Of a stretch of DNA of 64,000 nt, positions 1 to 36,883 are shown piece after piece (position 1 is the stretch's first letter; the number at the start of each line of letters is the position of its first letter). The DNA is from Clavelina lepadiformis (lineage: Eukaryota): NCBI RefSeq assembly GCF_947623445.1, contig NC_135248.1, forward strand, positions 2,598,977-2,662,976. Reading direction: 5' to 3'. The translations under genes and the position numbers were made by a program. Below the pieces are notes generated by a model. It did no database searches. It saw nothing but the letters and a program-made list of their open reading frames with translations, and had not been told where the DNA came from.

Positions 1-2461
1 TGCCCAACTCCGAATGAAGTATGGATTGTTGGGTACTCAATAGTACATCATGTGTATAGACAGCACGGATCAATATATTTTGTTCCTTTTTCTTCTGCTC
101 TCCCAAACCCACAGTAACCTCCCATCAGGAGAATCCAGAAGTCTAAACCATAGGTCGGCAACCAGCGGCTCTTTCATCTCTGTGCTCTGGTTCCCGCCAC
201 TCAGAGCCAATGAGCTGATTTAGGAAAACTTAATGTGATTAGCTAATGGTGGTTATTAGTGTCACGATGTAATAACTTAATGCGTTTGTCTGATTATTAT
301 TCAGATTGTTTTATGGTGATGTGGAAAATCTTATATAAACACTACCCAGTGGTTTTCGCGGGCATACAACGCATGACTGCTTGCCACTCACGTGATCCTA
401 AGTTTGTTTTTGTTCGAGGTCGCATGACTTGGATATTGGTCTTTGTTTGATGACTCTGCGGATGTTCATCGTTGTAGTGAGAATTTTGTGAGGTTAACTA
501 CTGAAGTTTTTACGTCTAACTGTAAAGCATTGGTTCGAATTATACATATAGCGTTAGGTTTTTTGTTTTAAGTATCCAATTAGGTGTTGTGGATCTGAGT
601 AGGCTTTAGTTTGGCGGAAACGAAACCAAATGGCTCTTTCAATGCTAAAGGTTGCCGACCCGTGACTAAACAATTCGCGTTTGACCACATTTTCTACTTT
701 GTTCTCCGGGATACCCAGATTACTCACCTAAAGTAATTCATGGTCGAACCGTTGATATTTTACCGCTTGGTATAGCAAGCATGACTTGTTTTGCAAGTTT
801 TTTTAGGCATTCTGGTGACTTCATCATACCATCCTAGTTAGTAATGTGACGGTTACGTCACGAGTCACGAGTTGTTTTCGAAATGCTGGAGTTTTATTTT
901 GGCATCTTGCAATTCAGTTGTTGATCGGACTTGAATTCTCTTCTAATGACGTTCAGATAAATTACCTCGCTTGATCTGGTGTGCCATATATATACTGTTG
1001 TCATGTTTGCAATTATTCCTTTACGTATCGATTTCACTGGTTACTACTGCGCAATGTAACATTCAGTCAGCTTTGCCCGAAGGTGAAAGCCTTTGTGTCT
1101 AATAATAAATAAAAATGGGAACTTTATCATTTAGTAATATGCATAGACAGAATTTAAGCAACTAACAGCATAGTCACGCCGTTTGAGAAATGAGAACTCA
1201 TATCGTTGAAGAAGAAGTAAAACAAGTTATTACCATCAACCGTCCTCGCTCATACTATAGTAATAGTCGTCAGTGTACGCGGTCTTTATGGCGAATATGT
1301 TTGTTGTGTAATACTTCACACAAGTAATACAGCAACGAAAATACTTATTTGTCATAGGAAATCGCAATTTGAAGAAGTAAGGGTAAGTTAAGGGCTTTAA
1401 TTTTTAGAGAATGGCGTATTGCAGTGTTGTTCTATTCATCTGGTATAAGTTATACCATGAACACTTTTTAGAAATTCTGATTCTGAAACATCCACTTTCA
1501 AGCGCAATTTATTGGTAAATGTCCAAGCTTCATGACCATAGATGGAAATTGGAAGAAAAACTGATTTAAAAAATGAGAGCTTAGCGGATATTAGAAAGGC
1601 CTCGCTTGTTGAAGTTCACGTATGACTGCACTTGCTTTTAAATTCAATCTTTGGTCGATCATGAGTTGCGTTACCAGGCGTTTGACTCCCACCTGCTTCG
1701 GTGTTTCTCCGCAGACTTGAAAAGAAAACCAATGAAAACCGAGTAAGGGTTTCAAGAGATTAAATTCCTCGGTTTTCTTTACGATTATTTTTATCTCGAA
1801 ATGAACAATCGCAAATAAACAAAGATCTCTGGCAACCACATTCACAGTGGACGGTGACTTGCAACTGTTTAATGTCTATTTTTCAAACAGAAACAACCTT
1901 TAGAACGTTTGTACCGCAGTTTAATGGCTATTATAATACTATTTAATGGTTGCTGTCAATATCATACTTGTGCAACGCTCTCCAAAGTTAAATTCGAAGC
2001 ACTCAATGTTACGTTTTTAGGGTCAGAAAAGCATACGTAGGTATTTTTGCGTATTCCTAAAAAGTTTGCAAATCTGGGAAAAAAATCGTTAAGAATAGAA
2101 CATGTTGTCCAAAAATAGAATAAAAAGCATTCGTTGTTAAATTTAGTAAACTTACCTACCCAAGCATAACTAGGCCAGCACAGAACACGAAAGCAAACAA
2201 TAATATATGTGAGTTTAAACAGTGCATTAAACCTTTAATTTTAAATCCATTTTTCTAATTTCAACTTAGAAAAACGTCTGTTGGTTAAAATGTGATTATC
2301 AGGATCAGCAAAGAAGAAAATAAAGCAAATAAATGACTCAAAATTTATACATATCGAATATTATTACGCAAATGAGTAACTTTTTGGTTACTAGTTACTG
2401 GAATTTTTCGAGTACTGTGTTATATTTTAATTTGGTAAATAAGTTAATTAACGCATGACAG

Positions 2462-2469
2462 TGACGTCA
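2462..2469. promoter_or_regulatory. Perfect CRE palindrome TGACGTCA upstream of the U1 collectin gene. Conserved in all five units (U2 ~10958, U3 ~19459, U4 ~26463, U5 ~32901).
   Basis: Motif reading only. It lies ~390 bp upstream of the ATG in U3-U5, and ~1.2 kb upstream in U1/U2 because of the MITE. A TATA-like ctatttataca sits ~115 bp upstream of the ATG. Confidence 0.3.
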
Positions 2470-2718
2470 GTACGACAAAGCAAATTCACAGTACACTGGT
2501 AGTAGCCGCATAAGATATACGTCACATTTATCTACCTGTCTCAGAGACATAATGTATTTGTTAAAGTCTTCGACCTTTTGAAATTGCTCCAGGGTAATAC
2601 TTTAAATTATTTTACTCGACACTATATCGCTTAACAAAGTGGTCAAGTCTATATGCAATATAGTACTTATATTTTTTAAATATTGCAATGCCTGTTTTTT
2701 AATGTTGCAGTTTAAATA

Positions 2719-3522
2719 AGGTACCTGTACCGAATAAGATCCAGTCCCTAATAAGGCCCATTGCTCATATTTCGCAAACCCGTGCAAATAAATGAAAGAT
2801 TTTGTCCCTACATAAAAACTAGTATAAATTCATGATGGTTTACCAGATTTCATCCTTGTCACGTGATCAACCGATTCGCTAGAGCACAACAAAAATTTGA
2901 TATTTGCAGTTAAGATGGTTTTGTTAATTTAGAAAAAAAAGTAAGTGAGAATTTGGCCGGTTAAATGAACTGTTGTCAGCCGGCTGAAGTTTTCATGTAA
3001 CAACCAACTTAGTATTGAAAAGGATAATGCACTTTTTTTTGCAAAAATTTTTCTGATGATAAAAATGTGACATTTTTTTGGTGGATGCCACATGCGCCTA
3101 ATAAGGCCCATACAAGATGCTTGGCTAATTGATGTCCAGACTTCAAGAGTGGTTCCAGTCATCAGTTGGCAAATTGTTGCAGTTACTTTGATGCGCCCAG
3201 TGGAATCTTTTTAAATGTTTGTACAACTTAAAATGTGAAATTTCTAATAATGTTATATGTTGTCTATTACTTTGTTTTGAATCAAAATACTCACAAAATT
3301 GGTGGGCCTTATTAGGAGCCTATGCTCCTAATAAGGCCCATTTTTTGGAATTTTTAATTTCTTTATAAGAATTTTTTGGAGGGTTGTCAGGTAATGTGGT
3401 TTTAATATGTTGTAGTCCTATACCCTCACTAATAGAATACGATTCTTCAGTCTATTCTCATTTATGGTTCTTGAGTTATTTTCAAAAAAGTGTTAGGTGG
3501 GCCTTATTCGGTACAGGTACCT
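2719..3522. mobile_element. 804-bp Tc1/mariner-type MITE (non-autonomous) with TA target-site duplication. Lies in the proximal promoter of the U1 collectin gene.
   Basis: Terminal inverted repeats AGGTACCTGTACCGAATAAG ... CTTATTCGGTACAGGTACCT. TA on both flanks. Internal palindromes cctaataaggccc/gggccttattagg, including a 42-bp perfect palindrome at ~3301-3342. The empty site gt(t/g)taaaTAataggac is preserved in U3, U4 and U5. No ORF. Confidence 0.8.
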
Positions 3523-3661
3523 TAATAGGACTATTTGTACCAAAAACCACGTCATAAGTGCCCGCAAAAATATCGTTTATGTTGTTTTTATTTTCAATGT
3601 TCAACCTTAAGTCTATTTTCTAATAGATTAAGTCATTGTTCTGAAAAGTAATCACTAAGAC

Positions 3662-3914
3662 ATGATGATGATGATGCTTGTATGCTTCTTATTTGTCACC
3701 GCATCACTTGTAAACGGACAAGATTACTTGACTTGCTTGAGAAACAGTGACGCATTTGCTGGTATCAACCCTCAAGACACAGTATCCAACATTCGGGGCC
3801 CGCCAGGTTACCCTGGTAAACGGGGAAGTCCAGGTGACAGGGGTCTACAAGGTGACAAAGGTTCCAAGGGTGAACCCGGATCATCCGACCGTGAAGAAAT
3901 TAGACGCTTAAGAG
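3662..3914 (+). CDS. collectin-like C-type lectin, exon 1 of 4 (U1): signal peptide plus collagen-like region
   Basis: ORF 3662-3925 encodes MMMMMLVCFLFVTASLVNG (signal peptide) then GPPGYPGKRGSPGDRGLQGDKGSKGEPGSS, which is 10 Gly-X-Y triplets. Donor is AG|GTGTGC at 3915, phase 1. Confidence 0.7.
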
Positions 3915-4073
3915 GTGTGCGTTAGATCATACACTGACGTAGTGAATTGAACTGTTTCAATTTTCTCCTGATTTTATTTGCAATACATTATGTGGTCATA
4001 CTTGTAAGCTTTCAAAAATCATGTGACAATTTTGTTAGTTATGAATGTTTTATGCAGCTGATTTGCTTTTCAG

Positions 4074-4139
4074 AAACCCAAGCTCTTATAAATATCGCCA
4101 TAAGACCACTTCAGGACAAAATATCACGCCTGTGTCAAG
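4074..4139 (+). CDS. collectin-like gene, exon 2 (U1): neck
   Basis: Acceptor ttttcag|, 66 nt, phase 1 to phase 1, encoding ETQALINIAIRPLQDKISRLCQ. Donor AAG|GTTTGG. The acceptor choice is supported because a 1-bp deletion in U3 just upstream of it keeps this frame but breaks the alternative (tatgcag|ctg). Confidence 0.55.
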
Positions 4140-4240
4140 GTTTGGTGCCGTTGTTAATAATAATGTTTTCTTTGATATGATCTTATCGAGTTTTTAGATT
4201 TGTTAAAAAATAACCTGACTTTTTTCATCCTATCAGAAGT
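4091..4240 (+). repeat. 150-bp direct duplication flanking the MULE-like insert, copy A. Contains the 3' 49 nt of exon 2 plus its donor. Copy B is at 5430-5578.
   Basis: Sequence aatatcgccataagaccacttcaggacaaaatatcacgcctgtg(t/c)caaggtttg...cctatcagaagt occurs once in U3, U4 and U5 but twice in U1/U2. The two copies are ~8% diverged. Confidence 0.8.
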
Positions 4241-5429
4241 GGTATACCGACACTTAATCACGCGACACTTAATCACTCGACACTTAATCACCGACACATA
4301 ATCACTAGAACATTTAATCACGCGACACATAATCACTTGGATGCGACAGCACTTGGACAGCGCCTTTGTCTATACTCTATAGCCTGTCTATACCGTCTTT
4401 GTTCTTTCAACTGTACACAGTACATTTTGAACTTGTTCCCGGTCTTATTTCTGCAGCAGTTTACTGCCTCGTTCAAAATAAAACGCGAGCAACCTACGAT
4501 CGCTTCCTTGATGCAATTAAAACAATGATCCCCACTGCTGCACCGGAATGCGTTTTGCTCGATTTTGAGACTGCCGCAGTAAGTGCTTTCCGCACAGCAT
4601 TTCCTACTGCAAATGTTAGGAGTTGTTATTTTCACCTTACACAAAGCGTCCTGCGCAAAGTTAATGAAATTGGCATGAAATGTGACTACGAGTCTGATGA
4701 GTGATGACGAATTAAGAACAGCTGATAGGTGTTTACCAGCCTTAGCCATGGTCCCTTCCTCTGACGTAGTCGAGTCATTTCTGATCTTAGCTGATAGCAT
4801 GCCCGATCACGAGAAGATGCCTGAGCTGCTTTCGTATTTCGAACACACATATATCAGAGGCAGACGACATCCGGGACGTGGTGAAAATTACGGCTCAGCC
4901 ATCTTTCCAATCGAAAGTTGGAATCATTACGAAGCCGGGGCAGGTTGCATTGCAAGAACCACAAATGCAGTCGAAGGTTGGCATTTTGGTCTCGAAGTGC
5001 TTTTTCAATGCCACCACCCGACATTGTGGACTTTCATACAGGGAATTGAAAAAGACATTCAAATGCAACGTGCAAAGTTTCTGCAAGGAATTGCTGGTAC
5101 TCAACCTTCTATTCCAATACGGTACAAGGCACTGAAACTGCGCGTGCAAAACACAGTTGACCGTTATCTGTCAAGAGATTTTAGTTTATCTTCGTGCAGT
5201 TGCTTACATTTCCCATGCATGACATTGTTACCGAGTGTGTACCGTAGCCTTATCTGCGCAAGCAATGTTTAATCATTTTAACAAGTTCTTTTCAGGTTTA
5301 TATTTGTTTTTTCGTGTGTAGACATGCAATTTTCGATACTGTAAATGTGTGATTAAATGTCCGAGTGATTAGGCCTATGTGTCGGTGATTAAGTGTCGCG
5401 TGATTAAGTGTCACCAAACCATCAGAAGT
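4241..5429 (+). mobile_element. MULE (Mutator-like) DNA transposon remnant in intron 2 of the U1 collectin gene
   Basis: Terminal inverted repeats of ~85-95 bp (4241-4336 and 5347-5429) built from tandem 14-bp subrepeats cgacacttaatcac (gtgattaagtgtcg at the other end). Internal ORFs 4366-4704 and 4682-5272 (frameshifted) carry the MULE core motif LLDFETAAVSAFRTAFPTANVRSCYFHLTQSV and the motif TTNAVEGWHFGL. The ~300 aa total is too short to be autonomous. Confidence 0.6.
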
Positions 5430-5578
5430 AATATCGCCATAAGACCACTTCAGGACAAAATATCACGCCTGTGCCAAGGTTTGATGCCGTTGTTAATAAT
5501 GATGTTTCTTTGATATGATCTTATCGAGTTATTAGATTTGTTAAAAAAGAACCCCACTTTTTTCATCCTATCAGAAGT
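5430..5578 (+). repeat. 150-bp flanking duplication, copy B. Carries a second potential donor (CCAAG|GTTTGA) 1.3 kb downstream of exon 2.
   Basis: See copy A. Confidence 0.8.
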
Positions 5579-6004
5579 AACGCCATGCGAGCAAAGTTGT
5601 TTTGTTTGACTGTGTTTTCGCTGTTTTCTGCGCACGTACGAAAATTCTCCTGCTGGTCGGCTACATTCTGCCCTTTCACGCTTTAGATTTAAATTCATTT
5701 AAAATAAATTCAACAGGATGTTATGAAAGCCATTATAACTGGCGTTGAAAAGTACGTAGTTCAGACCGAAAATGCTAGTTCTTGACTATCCCTTGGAAGC
5801 TTGTAGTATCAACCATGCTCAGAAATCAGGAACGTATCTGAAAGTCTTTAGTCGGCCTATACTAAGCTAATAAAAAATTGAAAATTTGTTATTTAACTCG
5901 TTTCTTCTTTGTACTTCTTCCTAAATGATATACTATGCTTATCAATGCTGACACTGGCAGTTTCTTATTGGATTAATTACTTTTTACAACTACTTCTTTC
6001 CAAG

Positions 6005-6152
6005 TTGCTGAAAGTGGTTGGTATACGCCGTTTAACGGATATCAATATCGCCTTACTGAAACTGAACAAAACTGGCAAGAAAGTCGACGTTTGTGCCAAG
6101 CAATGGGCGGTGATCTGGCCGCTGTTGGAATGAGGAACGTCGTCATTCGAAG
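6005..6152 (+). CDS. collectin-like gene, exon 3 (U1): N-terminal half of the C-type lectin domain
   Basis: Acceptor ccaag|, 148 nt, phase 1. Encodes (V)AESGWYTPFNGYQYRLTETEQNWQESRRLCQAMGGDLAAVGMRNVVIR, a typical CTLD start (GW..F.G..Y....T..W..A...C...GG.LA). Donor AG|GTTAGA. Confidence 0.7.
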
Positions 6153-6260
6153 GTTAGAAGTGGAATAAAACTGTCACATAAATGAAATATTACCACAACC
6201 ACGTCCAGAAATGTGCATCACTGTAATGGCAGAAGACAACGAAGTAACGTTTTTTTGCAG

Positions 6261-6525
6261 GAAACTTCTCACCGAAGTATTTAAATTTGTCCAAAATGTG
6301 TGGATAGGACTGAATGACATTTCCCGAGAAGGACAGTGGATGTGGATAGACGGTGTACAAGCGGCTGAAGGAAACGTCAACTGGTTAGCTGGTGAACCAA
6401 ACAATTCAGGAGATGAAGATTGTGCTGTGGTGAATGTGCCTGGCCACAACGGTGCAGTCGATTATCCATGTTCCTGGACCAAAATCGCTTTATGTGAAAA
6501 AATTGTCACAGACACTTGTCAGTAA
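6261..6525 (+). CDS. collectin-like gene, exon 4 (U1): C-terminal half of the CTLD with EPN motif, then stop
   Basis: Acceptor tttttttgcag|. Encodes KLLTEVFKFVQNVWIGLNDISREGQWMWIDG...AGEPNNSGDEDCAVVN...ALCEK. Stop TAA at 6523-6525. AATAAA at ~6654 and ~6666. Confidence 0.75.
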
Positions 6526-8116
6526 GAGTTTGTGCAAAACTTGTGTCGTCTGCTTTTGATTGCAAAATTCCGTTTGCTGTCATCCATCTGAGTATTACGT
6601 CATTACGTATAATCTTCCAGTGAACGCTTTAAAAACACGGATAAACTTGTAAAAATAAAACTATAAATAAACTACCTAACACGAAGCAGAGGTGATTAAT
6701 AGCAGAATGCACGTAAAACATTTTATTCGACTCTGTTTAACTTGCATGTATGTTTTCTACGACGTCCTGCATTCATCAGCAGCGTTAAAGTTGGAATGAT
6801 GTAAATAACGGAAATTAATCAATAAACAACAACAACAATGTTTTAACAAGATAAAGAATATCATTGCTTCTCAGCCGGTGAGTCGCAAAGCTTTTTCAGG
6901 TGGGCCACGTAGATTGCTGAAATGTTTCTTTGCAAAACTGCAATATCTGTACCGCAAATGGGCGCCACCCACCGGCGGACCCAGCAACAACTAATATTGC
7001 ACACAAAAAAAGACAATTGAAGTATGGACAAGTGTTCAGTCGAGTCGTTGCAGTGAACGATAGCGTAATACGCGGACTAATTTGAATGCTGCAGACCCAA
7101 CGGTTCATAAGATTTCACCTACGCATGAAATTGCAGAGATGATTGCAAAATTAACATGAGGTATCATATAAGTATATAATCGTTTTCCCTCAATGCCAAC
7201 ACAGTTACAACAAAAACAAAAAAAGAAAATAAGCATTAATGCTGGTTATGCAAAAGCACATGACGAAGGTGTTAAACTGCTTACTTATCAATAATGCAAT
7301 TCTTTGGGTTGATTTGAACGGTATGACTTCGCTTTACATGTATATTTACTACAGAAATGGCTGCAAGAACAAGAGTTATAATGATGCAACACTGCCCAAT
7401 AAATGCGATCGTAAACATACACCGCAAAGTTAAGATTATTATCATTCCCATAATTTTGTGTGTCATTGTAAACGCTGTACTATTATTTGGTTCAAAAGTA
7501 GTGGATGGTTGTTGTTTTGCACCGACTGGTAATAGGATCGCGGGTTGTTAATACGTCAACAGTAGCAATCGTACACAACAACGCAAGGCTTGAAAGGGAA
7601 CATTGTGAAAGCCGTTTAGAAAAAGGTACAATGTGCTTTGTCCTAAGGTGCAAATCGATTTTTTCCAGAAAACAAAGTAAGTCCTACAGGACAAAAAGCC
7701 AAACTTCGTTATTTCAGTTTGTTTCATTTCAAAGAACGCTATTGAGACTAAAAACTCTGATACTGACAGTGAACGGTTTATCAGCTTACAGAAACAGTGT
7801 AGTTTGAAAAGTTTTCATGCGTGAAATTTGAGAAAACATTTTGCAACATGTTAATTGATTGAAGATCCTGAAAAGTATAGAAAATTAATTAAGATTAAAG
7901 ATAACAAAAATGTAAAAGTAAAACAGCAAGAAAAATGATGACAAGTTGAGGGAAAATCATTTGTTTACTACGCGACTGGTTACAGTTTTCGTGAATCGGT
8001 CACCGACATTTTGCCGTCACACAACACACAAAATTTAAAACCAAAGCTCAGTTAGTGTTATCATAAATACATAAGTAGCCTTTACACAATACACATAAAA
8101 ACAAATATACACAGTA

Positions 8117-8150
8117 TATATATATATATATATATATATATACTGTGTAA
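8117..8150. repeat. (TA)n microsatellite embedded in a palindrome cacagta(ta)n tactgtg. Also at 16613-16646.
   Basis: Direct reading. U3 and U4 have only a few TA units at the orthologous site. Confidence 0.9.
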
Positions 8151-11100
8151 TGTGTATATAAACTACCCGCAATTTGTCTTAACATTTTGTGTGTTATGCA
8201 AAGTGTAGTCGGTTGTGAAATAAATGGTAAGAAAAAAACGAACCGTAGCAGATATGACAGATAAATAAGCGCGTTGGTAGATCTCGTTATTTTAGAATGA
8301 GAGGCAAGTGCCGTAATAAGTTAACTTGAAAGTAATAAAAGGCTTTGTGTAAGTTCACTTGAAAATTTATGTTCATGAGTATTTATAAGAACCAAGCATT
8401 TAGCTCCAAAAGTCTGCCGCAAAATGTCGCAAATTTACCACTCACTGTAAACTGGGTGTTGAGAATTTTGACGCTTCAATGTAAAATCGACTTGCATGCC
8501 CAACTCCGAATGAAGTATGGATTGTTGGGTACTCAATAGTACATCATGTGTATAGACAGCACGGATCAATATATTTTGTTCCTTTTTCTTCTGCTCTCCC
8601 AAACCCACAGTAACCTCCCATCAGGAGAATCCAGAAGTCTAAACCATAGGTCGGCAACCAGCGGCTCTTTCATCTCTGTGCTCTGGTTCCCGCCACTCAG
8701 AGCCAATGAGCTGATTTAGGAAAACTTAATGTGATTAGCTAATGGTGGTTATTAGTGTCACGATGTAATAACTTAATGCGTTTGTCTGATTATTATTCAG
8801 ATTGTTTTATGGTGATGTGGAAAATCTTATATAAACACTACCCAGTGGTTTTCGCGGGCATACAACGCATGACTGCTTGCCACTCACGTGATCCTAAGTT
8901 TGTTTTTGTTCGAGGTCGCATGACTTGGATATTGGTCTTTGTTTGATGACTCTGCGGATGTTCATCGTTGTAGTGAGAATTTTGTGAGGTTAACTACTGA
9001 AGTTTTTACGTCTAACTGTAAAGCATTGGTTCGAATTATACATATAGCGTTAGGTTTTTTGTTTTAAGTATCCAATTAGGTGTTGTGGATCTGAGTAGGC
9101 TTTAGTTTGGCGGAAACGAAACCAAATGGCTCTTTCAATGCTAAAGGTTGCCGACCCGTGACTAAACAATTCGCGTTTGACCACATTTTCTACTTTGTTC
9201 TCCGGGATACCCAGATTACTCACCTAAAGTAATTCATGGTCGAACCGTTGATATTTTACCGCTTGGTATAGCAAGCATGACTTGTTTTGCAAGTTTTTTT
9301 AGGCATTCTGGTGACTTCATCATACCATCCTAGTTAGTAATGTGACGGTTACGTCACGAGTCACGAGTTGTTTTCGAAATGCTGGAGTTTTATTTTGGCA
9401 TCTTGCAATTCAGTTGTTGATCGGACTTGAATTCTCTTCTAATGACGTTCAGATAAATTACCTCGCTTGATCTGGTGTGCCATATATATACTGTTGTCAT
9501 GTTTGCAATTATTCCTTTACGTATCGATTTCACTGGTTACTACTGCGCAATGTAACATTCAGTCAGCTTTGCCCGAAGGTGAAAGCCTTTGTGTCTAATA
9601 ATAAATAAAAATGGGAACTTTATCATTTAGTAATATGCATAGACAGAATTTAAGCAACTAACAGCATAGTCACGCCGTTTGAGAAATGAGAACTCATATC
9701 GTTGAAGAAGAAGTAAAACAAGTTATTACCATCAACCGTCCTCGCTCATACTATAGTAATAGTCGTCAGTGTACGCGGTCTTTATGGCGAATATGTTTGT
9801 TGTGTAATACTTCACACAAGTAATACAGCAACGAAAATACTTATTTGTCATAGGAAATCGCAATTTGAAGAAGTAAGGGTAAGTTAAGGGCTTTAATTTT
9901 TAGAGAATGGCGTATTGCAGTGTTGTTCTATTCATCTGGTATAAGTTATACCATGAACACTTTTTAGAAATTCTGATTCTGAAACATCCACTTTCAAGCG
10001 CAATTTATTGGTAAATGTCCAAGCTTCATGACCATAGATGGAAATTGGAAGAAAAACTGATTTAAAAAATGAGAGCTTAGCGGATATTAGAAAGGCCTCG
10101 CTTGTTGAAGTTCACGTATGACTGCACTTGCTTTTAAATTCAATCTTTGGTCGATCATGAGTTGCGTTACCAGGCGTTTGACTCCCACCTGCTTCGGTGT
10201 TTCTCCGCAGACTTGAAAAGAAAACCAATGAAAACCGAGTAAGGGTTTCAAGAGATTAAATTCCTCGGTTTTCTTTACGATTATTTTTATCTCGAAATGA
10301 ACAATCGCAAATAAACAAAGATCTCTGGCAACCACATTCACAGTGGACGGTGACTTGCAACTGTTTAATGTCTATTTTTCAAACAGAAACAACCTTTAGA
10401 ACGTTTGTACCGCAGTTTAATGGCTATTATAATACTATTTAATGGTTGCTGTCAATATCATACTTGTGCAACGCTCTCCAAAGTTAAATTCGAAGCACTC
10501 AATGTTACGTTTTTAGGGTCAGAAAAGCATACGTAGGTATTTTTGCGTATTCCTAAAAAGTTTGCAAATCTGGGAAAAAAATCGTTAAGAATAGAACATG
10601 TTGTCCAAAAATAGAATAAAAAGCATTCGTTGTTAAATTTAGTAAACTTACCTACCCAAGCATAACTAGGCCAGCACAGAACACGAAAGCAAACAATAAT
10701 ATATGTGAGTTTAAACAGTGCATTAAACCTTTAATTTTAAATCCATTTTTCTAATTTCAACTTAGAAAAACGTCTGTTGGTTAAAATGTGATTATCAGGA
10801 TCAGCAAAGAAGAAAATAAAGCAAATAAATGACTCAAAATTTATACATATCGAATATTATTACGCAAATGAGTAACTTTTTGGTTACTAGTTACTGGAAT
10901 TTTTCGAGTACTGTGTTATATTTTAATTTGGTAAATAAGTTAATTAACGCATGACAGTGACGTCAGTACGACAAAGCAAATTCACAGTACACTGGTAGTA
11001 GCCGCATAAGATATACGTCACATTTATCTACCTGTCTCAGAGACATAATGTATTTGTTAAAGTCTTCGACCTTTTGAAATTGCTCCAGGGTAATACTTTA

Positions 11101-11214
11101 AATTATTTTACTCGACACTATATCGCTTAACAAAGTGGTCAAGTCTATATGCAATATAGTACTTATATTTTTTAAATATTGCAATGCCTGTTTTTTAATG
11201 TTGCAGTTTAAATA

Positions 11215-12018
11215 AGGTACCTGTACCGAATAAGATCCAGTCCCTAATAAGGCCCATTGCTCATATTTCGCAAACCCGTGCAAATAAATGAAAGATTTTG
11301 TCCCTACATAAAAACTAGTATAAATTCATGATGGTTTACCAGATTTCATCCTTGTCACGTGATCAACCGATTCGCTAGAGCACAACAAAAATTTGATATT
11401 TGCAGTTAAGATGGTTTTGTTAATTTAGAAAAAAAAGTAAGTGAGAATTTGGCCGGTTAAATGAACTGTTGTCAGCCGGCTGAAGTTTTCATGTAACAAC
11501 CAACTTAGTATTGAAAAGGATAATGCACTTTTTTTTGCAAAAATTTTTCTGATGATAAAAATGTGACATTTTTTTGGTGGATGCCACATGCGCCTAATAA
11601 GGCCCATACAAGATGCTTGGCTAATTGATGTCCAGACTTCAAGAGTGGTTCCAGTCATCAGTTGGCAAATTGTTGCAGTTACTTTGATGCGCCCAGTGGA
11701 ATCTTTTTAAATGTTTGTACAACTTAAAATGTGAAATTTCTAATAATGTTATATGTTGTCTATTACTTTGTTTTGAATCAAAATACTCACAAAATTGGTG
11801 GGCCTTATTAGGAGCCTATGCTCCTAATAAGGCCCATTTTTTGGAATTTTTAATTTCTTTATAAGAATTTTTTGGAGGGTTGTCAGGTAATGTGGTTTTA
11901 ATATGTTGTAGTCCTATACCCTCACTAATAGAATACGATTCTTCAGTCTATTCTCATTTATGGTTCTTGAGTTATTTTCAAAAAAGTGTTAGGTGGGCCT
12001 TATTCGGTACAGGTACCT
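11215..12018. mobile_element. Same MITE, U2 copy
   Basis: U1 coordinates + 8496. Confidence 0.8.
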
Positions 12019-12157
12019 TAATAGGACTATTTGTACCAAAAACCACGTCATAAGTGCCCGCAAAAATATCGTTTATGTTGTTTTTATTTTCAATGTTCAA
12101 CCTTAAGTCTATTTTCTAATAGATTAAGTCATTGTTCTGAAAAGTAATCACTAAGAC

Positions 12158-12410
12158 ATGATGATGATGATGCTTGTATGCTTCTTATTTGTCACCGCAT
12201 CACTTGTAAACGGACAAGATTACTTGACTTGCTTGAGAAACAGTGACGCATTTGCTGGTATCAACCCTCAAGACACAGTATCCAACATTCGGGGCCCGCC
12301 AGGTTACCCTGGTAAACGGGGAAGTCCAGGTGACAGGGGTCTACAAGGTGACAAAGGTTCCAAGGGTGAACCCGGATCATCCGACCGTGAAGAAATTAGA
12401 CGCTTAAGAG
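12158..12410 (+). CDS. collectin-like gene, exon 1 (U2, identical to U1)
   Basis: ORF 12158-12421 is identical to 3662-3925. Confidence 0.7.
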
Positions 12411-12569
12411 GTGTGCGTTAGATCATACACTGACGTAGTGAATTGAACTGTTTCAATTTTCTCCTGATTTTATTTGCAATACATTATGTGGTCATACTTG
12501 TAAGCTTTCAAAAATCATGTGACAATTTTGTTAGTTATGAATGTTTTATGCAGCTGATTTGCTTTTCAG

Positions 12570-12635: not shown

Positions 12636-12736
12636 GTTTGGTGCCGTTGTTAATAATAATGTTTTCTTTGATATGATCTTATCGAGTTTTTAGATTTGTT
12701 AAAAAATAACCTGACTTTTTTCATCCTATCAGAAGT

Positions 12737-26858: not shown

Positions 26859-27111
26859 ATGATGATGATGATGCTTGTATGCTTCTTATTTGTCACCGCA
26901 TCACTTGTAAACGGACAAGATTACTTGACTTGCTTGAGAAACAGTGACGCATTTGCTGGTATCAACCCCCAAGACACAGCATCCAATATTCGGGGCCCGC
27001 CAGGTTACCCCGGTAAACGGGGAAGTCCCGGTGATAGGGGTCTACAAGGTGACAAAGGTTCCAAAGGTGAACCCGGGTCATCCGACCGTGAAGAAATTAG
27101 ACGCTTAAGAG
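26859..27111 (+). CDS. collectin-like gene, exon 1 (U4)
   Basis: ORF 26859-27122; signal peptide and collagen triplets intact. Confidence 0.65.
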
Positions 27112-27269
27112 GTATGCTTTAGATCATACACTGACGTAGTGAATTGAACTGTTTCAATTTTCTCCTGATTTTATTTGCAATACATTATGTGGTCATAAAT
27201 GAAAGCTTTCAAAAATCATGTGACAATTTTGTTTGTTGTTAATATTTTTTGCAGCTGATTTGCTATCAG

Positions 27270-27335
27270 AAACCCAAGCTCTTATAAATGACGCCATAAG
27301 ACCACTTCAGGACAAAATATCACGCCTGAGTCAAG
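27270..27335 (+). CDS. collectin-like gene, exon 2 (U4)
   Basis: Acceptor atcag|, 66 nt, encoding ETQALINDAIRPLQDKISRLSQ. Confidence 0.5.
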
Positions 27336-27958
27336 GTTTGATGCCGTTGTTAATAATAAAGTTTTTTTGATATGATTAAGTTACTAGGTTTGTCAAAAAA
27401 TAACACGACCTTTTTCATCCTATCAGAATTAATAGCATGCGAGCAAAGTTGTTTTGTTTGACTGTGTTTTCGCTGTTTTCTGCGCACGTACTAAAATTCT
27501 CCAGCTGGTCGGCCATATTCTGCCCTTTTACGCTTTAGATTACAACCTGTTATGCGCATTCAGTTTATTTTTGCTTTACGCAAAATGATAAAATGCATTG
27601 AACAAAGATGTCGTTCTGCCAAAGAATTGGTAATATTAGTTAAGCCAAAATAACCAAGAAAATTCAACAGAATGTTATGAAAGCTATTATAACTGGCGTT
27701 GAAACGTACGTAGTTCAGACCGAAAATGCTAGTTATTGACTATCCCTTGGAAGCTTGGAGTATCAACTATGCTCAGAAATCAGGAAAGTTTCTGAAAGCC
27801 TTTAGTCGGCCTATACTAAGCTAATAAAACATTGAAAATTTGTTATTTAATTCGTTTTTTCTATGTATTTCTTCCTAAATTATATACTACGCTTATCAAT
27901 GTTGACATTGGCATTTTTTTATTTGACTAATTACTTTTTAAAGCTGCTTCTTCCCAAG

Positions 27959-28106
27959 TTGCTGAAAGTGGTTGGTATACGCCGTCTAACGGATATCAAT
28001 ATCGCCTTACTGAAACTGAACAAAACTGGCAAGAAAGTCGACGTTTGTGCCAAGCAATGGGCGGTGATCTGGCCGCTGTTGGAATGAGGAACGTCGCCAT
28101 TCGATG
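27959..28106 (+). CDS. collectin-like gene, exon 3 (U4)
   Basis: Anchored to ORF 27863-28087. 148 nt. Donor TG|GTTAGA. Confidence 0.65.
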
Positions 28107-28215
28107 GTTAGAAATGGAATAAAACAGTCACATAAATGAAATATTACCACAACCACGTGCAGAAATGTGCATCACTGTAATGGCAGAAGACAACGAAGTA
28201 ACGTTTTTTTTGCAG

Positions 28216-28480
28216 GAAACTTCTCACCGAAGTAATTAAATCTGTCCGAGGTGTGTGGATAGGACTGAATGACATTTCTCAAGAAGGACAGTGGATGTGG
28301 ATAGATGGTGTACGAGAGGCTGAAGGAAACGACAACTGGGCAGCTGGTGAACCAAACCATGCAGGAAATGAAGATTGTGCTGTGGTGAATGTGCCTCGCC
28401 ACATCGGTGCACACGATGTTTCATGTTCCCGGACCGAATTCGCTATATGTGAAAAAATTATCACAGACATTTCTCAGTAA
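28216..28480 (+). CDS. collectin-like gene, exon 4 (U4)
   Basis: ORF 28253-28480 encodes WIGLNDISQEGQWMWIDGVREAEGNDNWAAGEPNHAGNEDCAVVN...CEKIITDISQ*. Confidence 0.7.
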
Positions 28481-33330: not shown

Positions 33331-33583
33331 ATGATGATGATGATATTTGTATGCTTCTTATTTGTCACCGCATCACTTGTAAACGGACAAGAATACTTGA
33401 CTTGCTTGAGAAATAGTGACGCATTTACTGGTATCAACCCCCAAGACACAGCATCCAACATTCGGGGCCCAACAGGTTACCCCGGTAAACGGGGAAGTCC
33501 CGGTGACAGGGGTGTACAAGGTGACAAAGGATCCAAAGGTGAACCCGGGTCATCCGACCGTGAAGAAATTAGACGCTTAAGAG
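33331..33583 (+). CDS. collectin-like gene, exon 1 (U5)
   Basis: ORF 33331-33594 encodes MMMMIFVCF... Donor AG|GTGTGC. Confidence 0.65.
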
Positions 33584-33743
33584 GTGTGCTTTAGATCACA
33601 CACTGACGTAGTAAATTGAACTGTTGCAATTTTCTCCTGATTTTATTTGCAATACATTGTGTGGTCATAAATGTAAGATTTTCAAAATCATGCGACAATT
33701 TTGTTTGTTATGGATGTTTTTTTTGCAGCTGATTTGCTATCAG

Positions 33744-33809
33744 AAACCCAAGCTCTCATAAATGACGCCATAAGACCACTTCAGGACAAAATATCACGCC
33801 TTTGCCAAG
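33744..33809 (+). CDS. collectin-like gene, exon 2 (U5)
   Basis: Acceptor tatcag|, 66 nt. Confidence 0.5.
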
Positions 33810-34424
33810 GTTTGGTGCCGTTGTTAATAATAATGTTTTCTTTCATATGATATTATCGAGTTATTAGATTTATTAAAAAGTAACCCGACTTTTTTCATCC
33901 TATCAGAAGTAACGCCGTGCGAGCAAATAGGTTTTGTTTGACTGTGTTTTCACTTTTTTCTGCGCACGTACAAAAATTCTCCTGTTGGTCGGCTACATTC
34001 TGCCCTTTCACGCTTTAGATTTAAACCTGTCATGGGCATTCAGTTTATTTTTGCTTCACGTAAAATGATAAAATGCATTGAACAAAGATGTCGTTCTATC
34101 AAAGAATTGGTAATATTAATTAGGCCGAAATAACCAAGAAAGTTCAACAGGATGTTATGAAAGCCATTATAACTGGCGTTGAAACGTACGTAGTTCAGAC
34201 CGAAAATGCTAGTTCTTGACTATCCCTTGGAAGCTTGTAGTATCAACTATGCTCAGGTATCAGGAAAGTTTCTGAAAGCCTTTAGTCGGCCTATACTAAG
34301 CTAATAAAACATTGAAAATTTGTTATTTAATTTACTTTTTTCTATGTACTTCTTCCTAAATTATATACTATGCTTATCAATGTTGATATTGGCAGTTTCT
34401 TATTTGACTAATTACTTTTTAAAG

Positions 34425-34584
34425 CTACTTCCCAATTGGCTGAAAGTGGTTGGTATACGCCGTCTAACGGATATCAATATCGCCTTACTGAAACTCAACA
34501 AAACTGGCAAGAAAGTCGACGTTTGTGCCAAGCAATGGGCGGTGATCTGGCCGCTGTTGGAATGAGGAATGTCGCCATTGAAAG
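34425..34584 (+). CDS. collectin-like gene, exon 3 (U5). The canonical acceptor is mutated (ccaag|ttg has become ccaat|tgg). The coordinates assume use of an in-frame cryptic acceptor taaag| 12 nt upstream.
   Basis: Anchored to ORF 34320-34565. Using aaag| at 34423-34424 keeps the frame and adds 4 aa (V becomes ATSQL). Confidence 0.35.
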
Positions 34585-34692
34585 GTTAGAAATAGAATAA
34601 AACTGTCACATAAATAAAATATTACCACAACCACGGCCAGAAATGTGCATTACCGTAATGGCAGAAGACAACGAAGTAACGTTTTTTTGCAG

Positions 34693-34957
34693 GAAACTTC
34701 TCACCGAAGTAATTAAATCTTCCCAAAATGTGTGGATAGGATTGAATGACATTTCTCGAGAAGGACAGTGGATGTGGATAGACGGCGTACGAGCGGCTGA
34801 AGGAAACGTCAACTGGGTAGCTGGTGAACCAAACAATTCAGGAGATGAAGATTGTGCTGTGGTGAATCGGCCTGGCTACAACGGAGCACTCGATTATCGG
34901 TGTTCCTTGACCCAATTCGCTTTATGTGAAAAAAATGTCACAGACACTTGTCAGTAA
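34693..34957 (+). CDS. collectin-like gene, exon 4 (U5)
   Basis: ORF 34643-34957; EPNNSGDEDCAVVN motif intact. Confidence 0.65.
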
Positions 34958-36883
34958 GAGTTTGTGCAAAACTTGTGTGGTCTGCTTTTGATTGCAAAGT
35001 TATGTGTGCTGTCATACTTCTCAGTCTTACGTCATGACTCTGTTTAACGTGCATGGATGTTTTCTACGACGTCAGCAGCGTTAAAGTTGGAATGATGTAA
35101 AATACGGAAATTTTAACAATAAACAACAACAACAACAATGTTTTAACAAGATAAAAATTATCATTGCATCTCAGCCGGTGAGTCGCGAAGCTATTTCAGG
35201 TGGGCCACATAGATTGCTGAAATGTTTCTGTGCAAAACTACAATATCTGTACCGCAAAGCGGCGGCATTGTGAACATTATAGAGCTGATTGTGATCATAC
35301 CCTATTGTTTTTGAAAAAAATTAATTTTATTCGACTCGTCTGTGTTATGCGAATTATTATAATATTTCATTTCTTCATGCAATATAAATATAAAAATGTA
35401 TAACGTCATTGTACTTTACGAATTAAAATTGCTGACGCGCCATACTGCAGTCCAAACACCAAGTCCGCACAGTGCAATAGGATGAACGACTTTGGTCGGG
35501 AAGAAAATGAAACGATGGTGCGCTTGTGGCTGCTTCAAGTCGGTGTGATGGCGATCCAACAGGAGAAAAAAATTGCACGGCCTTTAGCTAGGGTAGCGAT
35601 CCTATTATTTGCGTTCATGACGTCATCGACGGTGTCAGGGTTGTATGAAAAACCGGTCACTTGTACGTAAATGAAAATTATATATGTATTGTGCTTCAAT
35701 CGGTATGAATGACTATGTGTAAGTGTATCATCCACTAAATTATTCATATTTATGGCTATGAGTGATTGCATTCGCATACTTAAGATGACTTGGTGTTACA
35801 TAACTTTGTGTTGTGTAACACAAATCAAAAGGTGGAAAAGATTTAAAACATCCACTACAGATTTTATCACATACCGAGTGTTGTAATTCTGCATTTCCTC
35901 AAAGAATCGGTATGAAGTGACAAAGTACATAAAAAAGTATGTTTATCATAGCAGATACTTTTTGAATCTTTCTGGACAACTCAAAACAAGTCTAAAAGGT
36001 TGCTTAACGTTTCTGGCTTCCAGGTGTTGTCTTTTTGCCTTTTCGTCAATAGAGTGAGCGCCAAGCATCCAAGTTTATATGATTTTATTTCTTTACTTCG
36101 TTTCGTCATAGCTATAGCAATCTGGGTCAGGTTGCTGATTTGGTGTCGTTAACTCTTACGTTACTTAGCCCAATATACACCATACAGTACCCATCTGTAT
36201 GATGAATCAACGTTATGCATTTAAATTGAACCACAGCTTATACGACTATTTATACTTTTATAGTAACGATAAATTACTATGCGTGGTTTCATAACATGAC
36301 GTCATAACACATACTAATCTACCGCTTGTAACTCCATTAGTTTTACTCAACGTATGCACCATATTAAGAAAACCCAAACATATTAATAATAATTTTTCGT
36401 CACCTTCCCTGACGTACAGATAAATCACCAGCGTTTTGTATTGATTTTACATAACACAATTTGACGCCGTGCGAATAATGCAAGTCAGTACATCTCAACT
36501 GGTGGGTTGTCAAATTTTTTCAGGCCGCTAAGAAAGCCGAAAAGGTTCAGTACTAAATTTTGCATGAACGCGTGTTAGTGTAATTGAGCGGCTCCGTTTG
36601 TGTCGTATTAGGTATGAGGCTGAGTTTTGGAAGAGCTCTTCGCGAATATCTAAATGGTTTCGAAAAAAGAAGGGAGCTAGTTTTTATTACTTTGCATTGC
36701 AAAGCATTGTATATTGCGCTTAGTTGGAAGGTAAAAATTTGCAGAATGATCTTTAAACCTTGCAGGACTTAATAAAAGACAAAGGTGGTTTTGCGACATA
36801 AACTGCAAAGAGTCTAATTTGTTTTGATCTTTTGTCCGCCAACCTTGTGATATTTCTTGAAACATCTTTACTGCAAGGTTGAT

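What the first reader, a model, noticed from the sequence alone, without database searches (positions are those of the whole stretch)
1..35260. Five-copy tandem array of secreted collectin-like lectin genes (collagen triplets + neck + EPN C-type lectin domain)
Every unit encodes the same 4-exon gene: a signal peptide, 10 Gly-X-Y triplets, a short helical neck and a C-type lectin domain. The lectin domain retains the EPN motif, which in established CTLD biology gives mannose/GlcNAc-type Ca-dependent binding. This is the architecture of soluble pattern-recognition collectins (MBL/SP-D-like). All five copies keep open reading frames and splice sites, apart from the U5 exon-3 acceptor. Copy-to-copy amino-acid differences cluster in the sugar-binding half of the lectin domain (positions around EPN and the WND-equivalent). 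That pattern suggests diversifying selection, as is typical of immune lectin families.
Basis: partly seen in the sequence, partly recalled or inferred. Interest (0 to 1): 0.6.

Follow-up and report, generated by a model that had tools for sequence, protein, structure and literature searches.

The report
Tandem collectin-like lectin genes, sea squirt
The window holds a tandem array of five sea-squirt (Clavelina lepadiformis) genes for small secreted lectins built like vertebrate collectins. This is a real, already annotated and fairly ordinary immune-type gene family, and one copy shows signs of adaptive change in its sugar-binding half.

Summary
Five head-to-tail copies of a 4-exon gene lie at 3662-34957 (+). 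Each encodes a signal peptide, an N-terminal Cys, about 10 Gly-X-Y triplets, a 30-residue helical neck and a C-type lectin domain with EPN.

Pfam Lectin_C is significant (E 1e-14 to 1e-16). Collagen scores 23-26 bits, just under the 27.2-bit cut-off.

The DNA is from the ascidian Clavelina lepadiformis. RefSeq already models these genes as "CD209 antigen-like protein C", and every model can be rebuilt exactly from window exons.

- U1 and U2 lie in a 10,356-bp block repeated with zero differences, so there are four distinct proteins.
- U3-U5 are annotated with acceptors 12-15 nt upstream. This rescues U5's dead exon-3 acceptor.
- The WND-equivalent is AVD/AHD/ALD, so one of five Ca2+-site-2 ligands is missing and mannose-type binding is not assured.
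- The lectin domain resembles DC-SIGN, Endo180 and mannose-receptor domains more than collectin CRDs, and it is split by an intron.

Variation clusters in exon 4 (30 of 87 residues variable). Replacement divergence there is about twice the non-coding divergence, but only in pairs involving U4.

Collagenous lectins are known in tunicates, so this is a new member of a known kind.

The parts
3662..6525 (+). U1 gene. Exons 3662-3914 (signal peptide, N-terminal Cys25, 10 Gly-X-Y, start of neck), 4074-4139 (neck), 6005-6152 (CTLD N-half), 6261-6525 (CTLD C-half with EPN 201-203, stop).
   Evidence: The product is identical to RefSeq XP_076824189/192/193. Pfam result. AATAAA at 6654.
12158..15021 (+). 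U2 gene. Exons 12158-12410, 12570-12635, 14501-14648, 14757-15021. 100% identical to U1, introns included.
19857..21474 (+). U3 gene.
   Evidence: RefSeq isoforms X4 and X7 are rebuilt exactly from these exons.
26859..28480 (+). U4 gene. Exons 26859-27111, 27255-27335, 27944 or 27959-28106, 28216-28480. It is the most divergent CTLD C-half and has lost both extra cysteines (C105S, C242S).
   Evidence: RefSeq isoforms X1 and X5 are rebuilt exactly.
33331..34957 (+). U5 gene. Exons 33331-33583, 33729-33809, 34425-34584 (an upstream AG acceptor replaces the mutated aat at 34434-34436), 34693-34957.
   Evidence: XP_076824190 is rebuilt exactly.
1..18852 (.). Perfect tandem repeat with a period of 8496 bp, about 2.2 copies. 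Window 1-10356 equals 8497-18852 with no difference. All 48 differences of the 11.2-kb alignment lie in 10357-11212 versus 18853-19711.
4241..5429 (+). Decayed MULE-type DNA transposon in intron 2 of U1, with the same element at 12737-13925 in U2. It has 15-bp subterminal repeats (CGACACTTAATCAC) in inverted orientation at both ends. It is flanked by a 150-bp direct duplication (4091-4240 / 5430-5578, 95-96% identical) that includes the last 49 nt of exon 2 and its donor. It is absent from U3-U5.
   Evidence: Pfam MULE PF10551, E 2.8e-11.

Best explanation
This is a tandem array of paralogous genes in the ascidian Clavelina lepadiformis. The genes encode small secreted collagenous C-type lectins, that is, collectin-like proteins.

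**Proposed mechanism**
1. The signal peptide is cut after VNG19 (inferred).
2. Three chains are brought into register by the 30-residue helical neck and zip up the short 10-triplet collagen helix (inferred from architecture; the neck helix is predicted).
3. Cys25 links chains or subunits, as the N-terminal cysteines of collectins do (inferred).
4. Cys105 at the end of the neck and Cys242 in the C-terminal tail form a disulfide. This staples the neck to the CTLD and functionally replaces the missing C0-C0' bond of long-form CTLDs (inferred from perfect co-occurrence across the family).
5. Each CTLD carries a complete auxiliary Ca2+ site 1. It carries four of the five ligands of Ca2+ site 2 (E201, N203, E208, D223), with the Asn of WND missing. 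It would present a trimeric sugar-binding face towards microbial or particulate glycans.
6. The collagen stalk carries a Lys in the Xaa position after Pro-Gly (YP-G-K-R-G-S). [quoted passage not shown] The stalk could therefore recruit a MASP and feed the ascidian lectin complement pathway (inferred, untested).

**How the array evolves**
- It evolves by unequal crossing-over and gene conversion, seen in the perfect 8.5-kb repeats and in mosaic nearest-neighbour relations between units.
- The stalk-encoding exon 1 is under purifying selection.
- The ligand-binding half in exon 4 changes fast, at a rate above neutral in U4.
For: **Array and gene models**
- Five copies with open frames.
- Exact identity with RefSeq models of C. 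lepadiformis.

**Domains and fold**
- Lectin_C E 1e-14 to 1e-16. Collagen E about 1e-5.
- AlphaFold2: mean pLDDT 79.5, helix 75-104, CTLD pLDDT above 90.
- Foldseek top hits are neck+CRD structures of DC-SIGNR, langerin trimer and CL-K1 trimer, plus Endo180 CTLD2 and mincle, all at probability 1.00.
- Heptad a/d positions in the neck are hydrophobic at 7 of 8 core positions.

**Ca2+ sites**
- Ca2+ site residues were read from the alignments and from the sequences.

**Cysteine pairing**
- The neck Cys and the tail Cys are present together in 12 and absent together in 9 of 21 full-length family members, including U4.

**Stalk motif**
- The PGKRG motif is present in 20 of the 22 family members examined. 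It is also present in Styela clava "collectin-46-like" P0053, which is 38% identical over collagen+neck+CTLD.
- Motif definition, and the finding that only the Lys is essential: PMC2856262.

**Selection**
-.

**Background**
- Collectin/MBL, MASP and C3 components are known in ascidians (PMC5465252). Nine collectin genes were reported in Ciona (PMC514892).
Against: - No expression, protein or binding data were available here.
- Ten triplets make a short collagen helix, and the Pfam Collagen score is below the gathering cut-off.
- The Asn of WND, a direct Ca2+ ligand (PMC12842671), is Val, His or Leu in all copies. Canonical Ca2+-dependent sugar binding may therefore be weakened or altered.
- The residues after the motif Lys are Arg and Ser, not aliphatic and Pro. 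An Arg at that position has not been tested, according to PMC2856262.
- U3 has a Gly->Ala break in the helix, and U4 has lost two cysteines. Some copies may be functionally impaired.
- Positive selection rests on one lineage and small counts: 2-6 synonymous differences in exon 4.
Confidence: 0.7

Rival explanations
1. The proteins are collagenous lectins, but their canonical Ca2+/sugar site is degenerate. They would bind ligands in a non-canonical way: Ca2+-independent, a different sugar, or a protein or lipid ligand. In that case EPN says little about specificity.
For: - The WND-equivalent is AVD/AHD/ALD in all copies. That position has three states among five sequences.
- The alignment to Endo180 CTLD2 places Val opposite the Ca2+-ligand Asn.
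- Reviews document CTLs whose specificity departs from EPN/QPD predictions, and Ca2+-independent CTLs (PMC12842671).
- Paralogues vary the tripeptide itself: EPQ, EPS, QPD, QPS.
Against: - Four of the five site-2 ligands and all site-1 ligands are retained in every copy, including U4.
- EPN, the following Glu-Asp and the Asp before the Cys are nearly invariant in the family. This argues for a still-functional metal site.
- A clam lectin with WSD (Asn->Ser) still binds mannose, though weakly (PMC12842671).
Confidence: 0.3
2. The excess of amino-acid changes in exon 4 reflects relaxed constraint or incipient pseudogenisation of redundant copies, U4 above all, rather than diversifying selection.
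For: - U4 lost two conserved cysteines, U3 has a Gly->Ala break, and U5 lost its exon-3 acceptor.
- Exon-4 replacement divergence equals the non-coding divergence (ratio 0.8-1.25) in pairs without U4.
- Omega above 1 is nominally significant in one pair only (p = 0.034).
Against: - Relaxation cannot push the replacement rate above neutral. U4 pairs show 1.9-2.15 times the non-coding divergence (p 0.003-0.004) with low dS (2-5.5 synonymous differences).
- All frames stay open. All four canonical cysteines, WIGL, EPN and the Ca2+ ligands are kept.
- The two cysteines were lost together, as expected for a pair, and the same cysteine-less state occurs in 8 other family members.
- A U4-type allele with an open frame occurs in an independent ENA contig (P0049).
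Confidence: 0.25
3. The main role is not immune recognition but another extracellular lectin job: tunic or matrix assembly, mucus-based particle sorting during filter feeding, or metamorphosis.
For: - No expression data exist here.
- Immune-type genes, including MASPs, are active in ascidian metamorphosis (PMC5465252).
- Bivalve mucus CTLs sort food particles (PMC12842671).
- The collagen stalk is very short compared with complement-activating collectins.
Against: - Tandem amplification with fast evolution confined to the binding half is the usual signature of host-microbe interaction genes.
- A Lys-containing stalk motif of the MASP-binding type is conserved (PMC2856262).
- Ascidian collectin-like proteins are induced in inflammation (PMC5465252).
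Confidence: 0.2
4. The perfectly identical U1/U2 block is an assembly artefact, a mis-resolved repeat, so the true copy number differs from five.
For: - There are zero differences over 10,356 bp, while all other units differ by 5-9%.
- Long perfect tandem repeats are hard to assemble.
Against: - RefSeq lists five separate accessions for the U1-type protein: three of 243 aa and two of 242 aa with one Met fewer. This suggests several near-identical units exist, some outside the window.
- The repeat boundary is clean, and it is followed by an 850-bp diverged stretch that leads into U3.
Confidence: 0.15

Closest known systems
Vertebrate collectins (CTLD group III: MBL, SP-A, SP-D, CL-L1, CL-K1)
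   Same: - The order of parts is the same: signal peptide, Cys-containing N-terminal segment, Gly-X-Y collagen stretch, alpha-helical neck, C-terminal Ca2+-type CTLD with EPN (definition in PMC7432537).
- SP-D neck+CRD aligns over residues 34-216 of the mature query sequence (signal peptide removed) (E 7.6e-11).
- The CL-K1 and SP-D trimers are structural hits.
- A Lys lies in the Xaa position after Pro-Gly, as in the MASP-binding motif (PMC2856262).
   Different: - There are only 10 triplets.
- The CTLD is more similar to group II/VI domains than to collectin CRDs: 60-105 bits against 38-45 bits.
- The CTLD keeps a long-form N-terminal hairpin (GWYTPFNGYQY) but without its cysteines.
- WND is replaced by AVD/AHD/ALD.
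- There is an extra neck-to-tail cysteine pair.
- The CTLD is split by a phase-2 intron and the whole collagen stretch sits in exon 1. In COLEC10 the collagen is spread over exons 1-5 and the CRD is one exon (PMC7432537).
Tunicate collectin-like / MBL-like lectins (Ciona MBL-like collectins, Styela collectin-like proteins, Styela clava 'collectin-46-like' XP model P0053)
   Same: - P0053 is 38% identical to U1 over collagen+neck+CTLD (E 3e-36).
- P0053 shares the RPGKRG stalk motif, the cysteine-less hairpin, EPN, and a WND-equivalent without Trp-Asn.
- Reviews place such lectins in the ascidian lectin complement pathway (PMC5465252). Nine collectin genes were reported in Ciona (PMC514892).
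   Different: - The Styela protein has about 18 triplets and lacks the neck/tail cysteine pair.
- No Ciona protein appeared in either database search, so the relation to the characterised Ciona MBLs is untested.
- The Clavelina array, its perfect repeats and its splice-acceptor shifts have not been described. The genome paper PMC10950049 does not mention lectins.
DC-SIGN / CD209 family (CTLD group II), the name RefSeq gives these genes
   Same: - This is among the best matches by sequence and fold to the neck+CRD: DC-SIGNR 67.6 bits and Foldseek rank 1.
- It has EPN.
- Collagen-less paralogues P0012 and P0014 in the same species carry an N-terminal hydrophobic anchor, like type II receptors.
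   Different: - The array genes have a cleavable signal peptide and a collagen stalk instead of a cytoplasmic tail, transmembrane anchor and 23-residue neck repeats.
- They are predicted to be soluble.
- The RefSeq name reflects CTLD similarity only.

Membership tests
C-type lectin-like domain (Pfam PF00059) | Significant match to the Lectin_C profile over the whole domain | tested here: met
   E 2.6e-16 to 2.1e-14, 54.6-60.7 bits against a cut-off of 22.6, profile positions 2-107 of 107.
C-type lectin-like domain (Pfam PF00059) | Four canonical cysteines (C1-C4, C2-C3) and the WIGL motif | tested here: met
   C137, C210, C226 and C234, plus WIGL, are present in all five copies. The CTLD fold is predicted with pLDDT above 90 and matches solved CTLDs at rmsd about 2 A.
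Collectins (CTLD group III) | N-terminal segment with cysteine, after a signal peptide | tested here: met
   Hydrophobic N-terminus MMMMMLVCFLFVTASLVNG, then QDYLTC25LR. The LTCLR motif is conserved in the family. The cleavage site itself is inferred.
Collectins (CTLD group III) | Collagen-like Gly-Xaa-Yaa repeats | tested here: met
   GPP GYP GKR GSP GDR GLQ GDK GSK GEP GSS gives 10 uninterrupted triplets in U1, U2, U4 and U5. U3 has Gly->Ala in triplet 9. Pfam Collagen E 6e-6 but 26.3 bits, below the 27.2 cut-off.
Collectins (CTLD group III) | Alpha-helical coiled-coil neck between collagen and CRD | tested here: met
   AlphaFold2 predicts a helix at 75-104, pLDDT 74-87. The heptad pattern is hydrophobic at 7 of 8 a/d positions in U1. 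Neck+CRD structures are top fold hits. Trimer formation itself was not tested.
Collectins (CTLD group III) | Complete Ca2+ site 2 (E-P-N, downstream Glu, Asn-Asp of WND) | tested here: not met
   E201, N203, E208 and D223 are present. The Asn is replaced by Val (U1-U3), His (U4) or Leu (U5), and the Trp by Ala. Role of Asn/Asp as Ca2+ ligands: PMC12842671.
Collectins (CTLD group III) | CRD most similar to collectin CRDs and encoded by a single exon | tested here: not met
   Best solved relatives are DEC-205, Endo180, mannose receptor and DC-SIGN(R). SP-D scores 45 bits and CL-11 38 bits. The CTLD is split between exons 3 and 4, whereas the COLEC10 CRD is exon 6 alone (PMC7432537). This is a similarity ranking only; no phylogeny was built.
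Complement-activating collectins/ficolins (MBL type) | [quoted passage not shown] | tested here: inconclusive
   The sequence is Y-P-G-K53-R-G-S-P. The Lys is in the Xaa position after Pro-Gly, and the other lysines are in Yaa positions, as described for MBL (PMC2856262). The next residues are Arg and Ser instead of aliphatic and Pro. The motif is conserved in 20 of 22 family members and in Styela. Binding was not tested.
Collectins (CTLD group III) | Oligomers of trimeric subunits; Ca2+-dependent sugar binding | not testable with these tools
   This needs protein biochemistry.
DC-SIGN/CD209 (CTLD group II, type II membrane receptors) | N-terminal cytoplasmic tail and transmembrane anchor, no collagen | tested here: not met
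   The only hydrophobic segment is the 19-residue N-terminal signal-like peptide, and it is followed by a collagen stretch. Paralogues P0012 and P0014 do have an internal anchor and no collagen.

The most novel reading that the evidence does not exclude
The array may work as a combinatorial unit. RefSeq isoforms X2 and X6 join exon 1 of U1/U2 to exons 2-4 of U3. Isoform X3 joins exon 1 of U1/U2, exon 2 of U3 and exons 3-4 of U4. If these read-through, inter-unit splices are real, and not mapping artefacts among near-identical paralogues, one stalk exon could be combined with several different binding domains. Together with the alternative acceptors (+ADLLS, +AASSQ), this would multiply the lectin repertoire beyond the gene count. 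It would also bypass U3's Gly->Ala stalk defect.
Probability: 0.08. Interest if true: 0.6.

Novelty: new member of a known kind. Interest (0 to 1): 0.3.

Why it matters
Tunicates are the sister group of vertebrates, and their lectin complement pathway is used to reconstruct how vertebrate innate immunity arose.

This locus shows a collectin-type architecture built on a CTLD that looks more like DC-SIGN and mannose-receptor domains. The same species has membrane-anchored, collagen-less paralogues. That is relevant to whether "collectins" arose once or repeatedly by domain shuffling.

The conserved stalk Lys gives a direct, testable prediction for MASP binding. The locus is also a compact example of birth-and-death evolution: perfect recent duplicates sit next to diverged copies, splice-acceptor shifts compensate a lost site, and one copy evolves above the neutral rate in its binding half.

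None of this is surprising for an invertebrate immune lectin family, and the genes are already in RefSeq.

Tried and rejected
- **Tandem Repeats Finder** found nothing. Its longest period is 500 bp and the units are 6.5-8.5 kb. Self-BLAST was used instead.
- **First exon coordinates.** My first set was one base off and gave frameshifts. It was corrected.
- **The look-up of encoding contigs** for P0001, P0002, P0040 and P0042 returned no record. The chromosome context left of the window could therefore not be read, and extension of the array is inferred only from accession counts.
- **afdb50 fold library** is not installed.
- **Rfam and tRNA scans** of the window gave no hits.
- **Spacers.** No ORF of 75 aa or more in the spacers was recognisable as a known coding sequence; of the intronic ORFs only the MULE fragment was confirmed by Pfam, and the spacer ORFs were not scanned.
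- **Gene conversion as an explanation for low divergence of exons 1-3** was considered and rejected. dS in exon 1 (0.09-0.15) is as high as non-coding divergence, so the low dN there is purifying selection.
- **Conversion from a distant paralogue as an explanation for U4's divergent exon 4** was considered and rejected, because dS there is low.
- **The duplicated 49-nt piece of exon 2 (5430-5478) as an alternative exon** was considered. No in-frame use was found and RefSeq does not use it.
- **Per-site dN/dS** was not attempted. Four distinct sequences give no power, and PAML is not available.
Nothing rests on them.

Full report
**1. What is in the sequence**

The window is AT-rich (GC about 0.30-0.42) eukaryotic DNA.

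BLASTN of the four exons proposed for the first unit finds five co-linear sets on the + strand and nothing else in the 64 kb. Self-megablast shows head-to-tail units of 8496 bp (U1 to U2), about 7.7 kb, 7.0 kb and 6.5 kb.

The homologous junctions give open 241-243-aa products for U3-U5.

All donors are GT. All acceptors are AG except U5 exon 3, which reads aat. My first coordinates were one base off and were corrected.

Each unit also has a conserved upstream region of about 130 bp. Each has an AATAAA or ATTAAA signal 129-200 nt after the stop.

**2. Identity**

The U1 protein is 100% identical to RefSeq proteins of the ascidian Clavelina lepadiformis, named "CD209 antigen-like protein C".

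I enumerated exon combinations and nearby AG acceptors. Every RefSeq model of the cluster could be rebuilt exactly from window exons.

- U3, U4 and U5 use an exon-2 acceptor 15 nt upstream (20247, 27255, 33729), which adds ADLLS.
  - In U1 and U2 an extra T puts that upstream site out of frame and lengthens the polypyrimidine tract of the downstream site.
- For exon 3, U3 and U4 have two annotated acceptors: 20939 or 20954, and 27944 or 27959. The upstream one adds AASSQ.
- U5 uses only the upstream acceptor (34425, adding ATSQL).

Three RefSeq isoforms are chimeras.

- Isoforms X2 and X6 are exon 1 of U1/U2 joined to exons 2-4 of U3.
- Isoform X3 is exon 1 of U1/U2, exon 2 of U3 and exons 3-4 of U4.
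- These are Gnomon predictions. I cannot tell real read-through splicing from mis-mapping among paralogues.

A sixth distinct copy (XP_076824897, P0042) is not in the window.

Five separate accessions carry the U1-type protein, two of them with one Met fewer. The window begins inside a spacer, so the array very probably continues to the left. This is inferred.

**3. Domains**

| Test | Result |
|---|---|
| Pfam Lectin_C | E 2.6e-16 to 2.1e-14, full-length match |
| Pfam Collagen | E 6e-6 to 7e-5, 22.9-26.3 bits, cut-off 27.2 |
| AlphaFold2 (24-sequence alignment) | mean pLDDT 79.5; helix at residues 75-104; CTLD pLDDT above 90; collagen part disordered in the monomer, as expected |
| Foldseek against the PDB | top hits DC-SIGNR neck+CRD, Endo180 CTLD2, DC-SIGN, mincle, langerin trimer, CL-K1 trimer, SP-D |

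The collagen stretch is GPP GYP GKR GSP GDR GLQ GDK GSK GEP GSS. That is ten triplets, except in U3, which has Gly->Ala in the ninth.

The neck of U1 has hydrophobic residues at 7 of 8 consecutive a/d heptad positions. The 5-residue ADLLS insertion of U3-U5 breaks that register.

**4. The binding site**

Alignment to solved CTLDs and the family alignment show the following.

- WIGL and the four canonical cysteines are present.
- The auxiliary Ca2+ site 1 is complete: D175, E179, N204, D209.
- EPN (201-203) and E208 are present.
- The WND motif is replaced by AVD (U1-U3), AHD (U4) or ALD (U5).
  - The Asn and Asp of WND are direct ligands of the Ca2+ at site 2, the ion that holds the sugar hydroxyls (PMC12842671).
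  - So one of five ligands is missing in every copy, and that position is itself variable.

The same review notes that motif-based predictions often fail in invertebrate lectins, and that a WSD lectin still binds mannose weakly.

Paralogues elsewhere in the Clavelina genome, and in unnamed ENA assemblies, carry EPQ, EPS, QPD or QPS. The family as a whole has diversified at this site.

**5. Two further structural inferences**

*First, the extra cysteine pair.* The N-terminal hairpin of long-form CTLDs is present (GWYTPFNGYQY aligns with C-x-x-W-x-P-F-x-x-x-C-Y of Endo180). Both hairpin cysteines are replaced. Instead there is a Cys at the end of the neck (C105) and one in a C-terminal tail (C242).

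Across 21 full-length family members these two cysteines are present together in 12 and absent together in 9, including U4. There are no exceptions. They are most likely partners in a disulfide.

*Second, the stalk motif.* The stalk contains Y-P-G-K-R-G-S. [quoted passage not shown] Only the Lys, in the Xaa position, is essential, and other lysines lie in Yaa positions (PMC2856262).

- Here K53 is in the Xaa position after Pro-Gly, and the other two lysines are in Yaa positions.
- PGKRG is conserved in 20 of the 22 family members examined (the two without it are the collagen-less paralogues P0012 and P0014) and in Styela clava "collectin-46-like", while the rest of the stalk varies.
- This is good circumstantial evidence for a conserved protein-binding site. 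MASP is the obvious candidate. It is not tested.

**6. Selection**

*Nei-Gojobori estimates.*

- Exon 1 has omega 0.04-0.35. This is significantly below 1 (Fisher p 0.0002-0.0095).
- Exon 4 has omega 0.82-4.2.
- Only U1-U4 is nominally above 1 (28 replacement against 2 synonymous differences, p = 0.034).

*Larger neutral reference.* I used about 770 aligned non-coding sites per pair: upstream region, intron 1, the 3' end of intron 2, intron 3 and the 3' flank.

- Replacement divergence in exon 4 is 1.9-2.15 times the non-coding divergence for U1-U4, U3-U4 and U4-U5 (p 0.003-0.004).
- It is 0.8-1.25 times in the other three pairs.
- The three significant tests share the U4 branch and are not independent.

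Relaxed constraint cannot exceed the neutral rate. Conversion from a distant paralogue would raise dS, which is low. Positive selection on U4's binding half is therefore the best reading, but on small numbers.

*Where the variation lies.*

- 30 of 87 residues vary in exon 4, against 10-23% elsewhere.
- 17 of the 30 lie in the 41 residues from the loop before EPN to the Cys after the WND-equivalent.
- The rest lie at the end of helix alpha2 and in strand beta5 and the tail.

Nearest-neighbour relations are mosaic. Intron 1 is closest between U3 and U4 (2.5%), and intron 3 between U1 and U4 (2.8%). This points to exchange between units.

**7. The perfect repeat and the transposon**

Window 1-10356 equals 8497-18852 with no difference at all. 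All 48 differences of the 11.2-kb alignment lie in its last 850 bp. This is either a very recent duplication or an assembly problem, and reads are needed to decide.

U1 and U2 carry a decayed MULE-type transposon in intron 2 (Pfam MULE E 2.8e-11).

- The element spans 1189 bp (4241-5429) and has inverted 15-bp subterminal repeats.
- It is flanked by a 150-bp direct duplication (95-96% identical) that includes the 3' 49 nt of exon 2 and its donor.
- The flanks have diverged by 4-5% while U1 and U2 are identical. So the insertion is old and the U1/U2 duplication is young.

**8. Comparison with what is known**

The polypeptide fits the textbook description of a collectin: N-terminal Cys region, Gly-Xaa-Yaa, neck and CRD (PMC7432537).

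Collectin-like or MBL-like lectins, MASPs and C3 are established in ascidians (PMC5465252). Nine collectin genes were reported in Ciona (PMC514892). A Styela clava model, 38% identical over collagen+neck+CTLD, is annotated collectin-46-like.

Membership in the vertebrate collectin group is not supported on three counts.

- The CTLD ranks closer to DEC-205, Endo180, mannose receptor and DC-SIGN than to SP-D or CL-11.
- It is split by an intron.
- It has a long-form hairpin.

The same species also has collagen-less, membrane-anchored paralogues with the same neck and CTLD (P0012 and P0014). So it works like a collectin and belongs to a tunicate collagenous-lectin family. Whether that family shares the collagen-CTLD fusion with vertebrate collectins by descent is open.

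The RefSeq name CD209-like reflects CTLD similarity only. There is no membrane anchor.

The Clavelina genome-annotation paper does not mention lectins.

**9. Verdict**

This is a new, already annotated member of a known kind. The useful details are the non-canonical Ca2+ site, the co-varying cysteine pair, the conserved stalk Lys, the acceptor shifts, U4's above-neutral replacement rate and the perfect 10.4-kb repeat. Interest is modest.

Noticed in passing
window 37077-43131 (+): A large gene with many LDL-receptor class A repeats (Pfam Ldl_recept_a E 6.7e-18 and 4.4e-9), spread over several exons from about 37.0 to 41.9 kb. It ends in a rhodopsin-type 7TM domain (7tm_1, E 3.4e-20) within an 807-aa open frame at 40708-43131. 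This is an LDLa-repeat GPCR lying directly downstream of the lectin array.
   Followed up: partly
window 1-10356 vs 8497-18852: A tandem repeat identical to the base over 10,356 bp, while neighbouring units differ by 5-9%. It is either a very recent duplication or a possible assembly artefact.
   Followed up: partly
window 4091-5578 (and 12587-14074): A decayed MULE transposon (4241-5429) with inverted 15-bp subterminal repeats. It is flanked by an unusually long 150-bp direct duplication that copies the 3' end of exon 2 and its splice donor. This is far longer than a normal target-site duplication.
   Followed up: partly
RefSeq isoforms mapped to window exons 12158-12410 + 20247-21474, and 12158-12410 + 20247-20327 + 27944-28480: Predicted isoforms X2, X6 and X3 combine exons of different units (U1/U2 exon 1 with U3 or U3+U4 exons). 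They are either inter-unit read-through splicing or an annotation artefact.
   Followed up: partly
L001 10001-10804 (ENA ERZ22157276, contig ctg12930l): A 36%-identical collagen+CTLD homologue (P0015) is encoded by one uninterrupted ORF. It sits between retrotransposon genes (integrase, RT, gag-protease) in an unnamed assembly. It may be an intronless retrocopy of the family in another organism.
   Followed up: no
Clavelina paralogues P0012 and P0014 (not in the window): These members of the same CTLD/neck family lack the collagen stretch. They have an internal hydrophobic anchor instead, so they look like type II membrane receptors. Soluble collagenous forms and membrane forms therefore share one CTLD lineage in this species.
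   Followed up: no
window 61876-62151 (+): An open frame with a leucine-rich-repeat-like sequence (LEHLDLSFTHVTSASVDVLRYLPNLRHLNLWATQV). It is probably an exon of another gene near the right end of the window.
   Followed up: no
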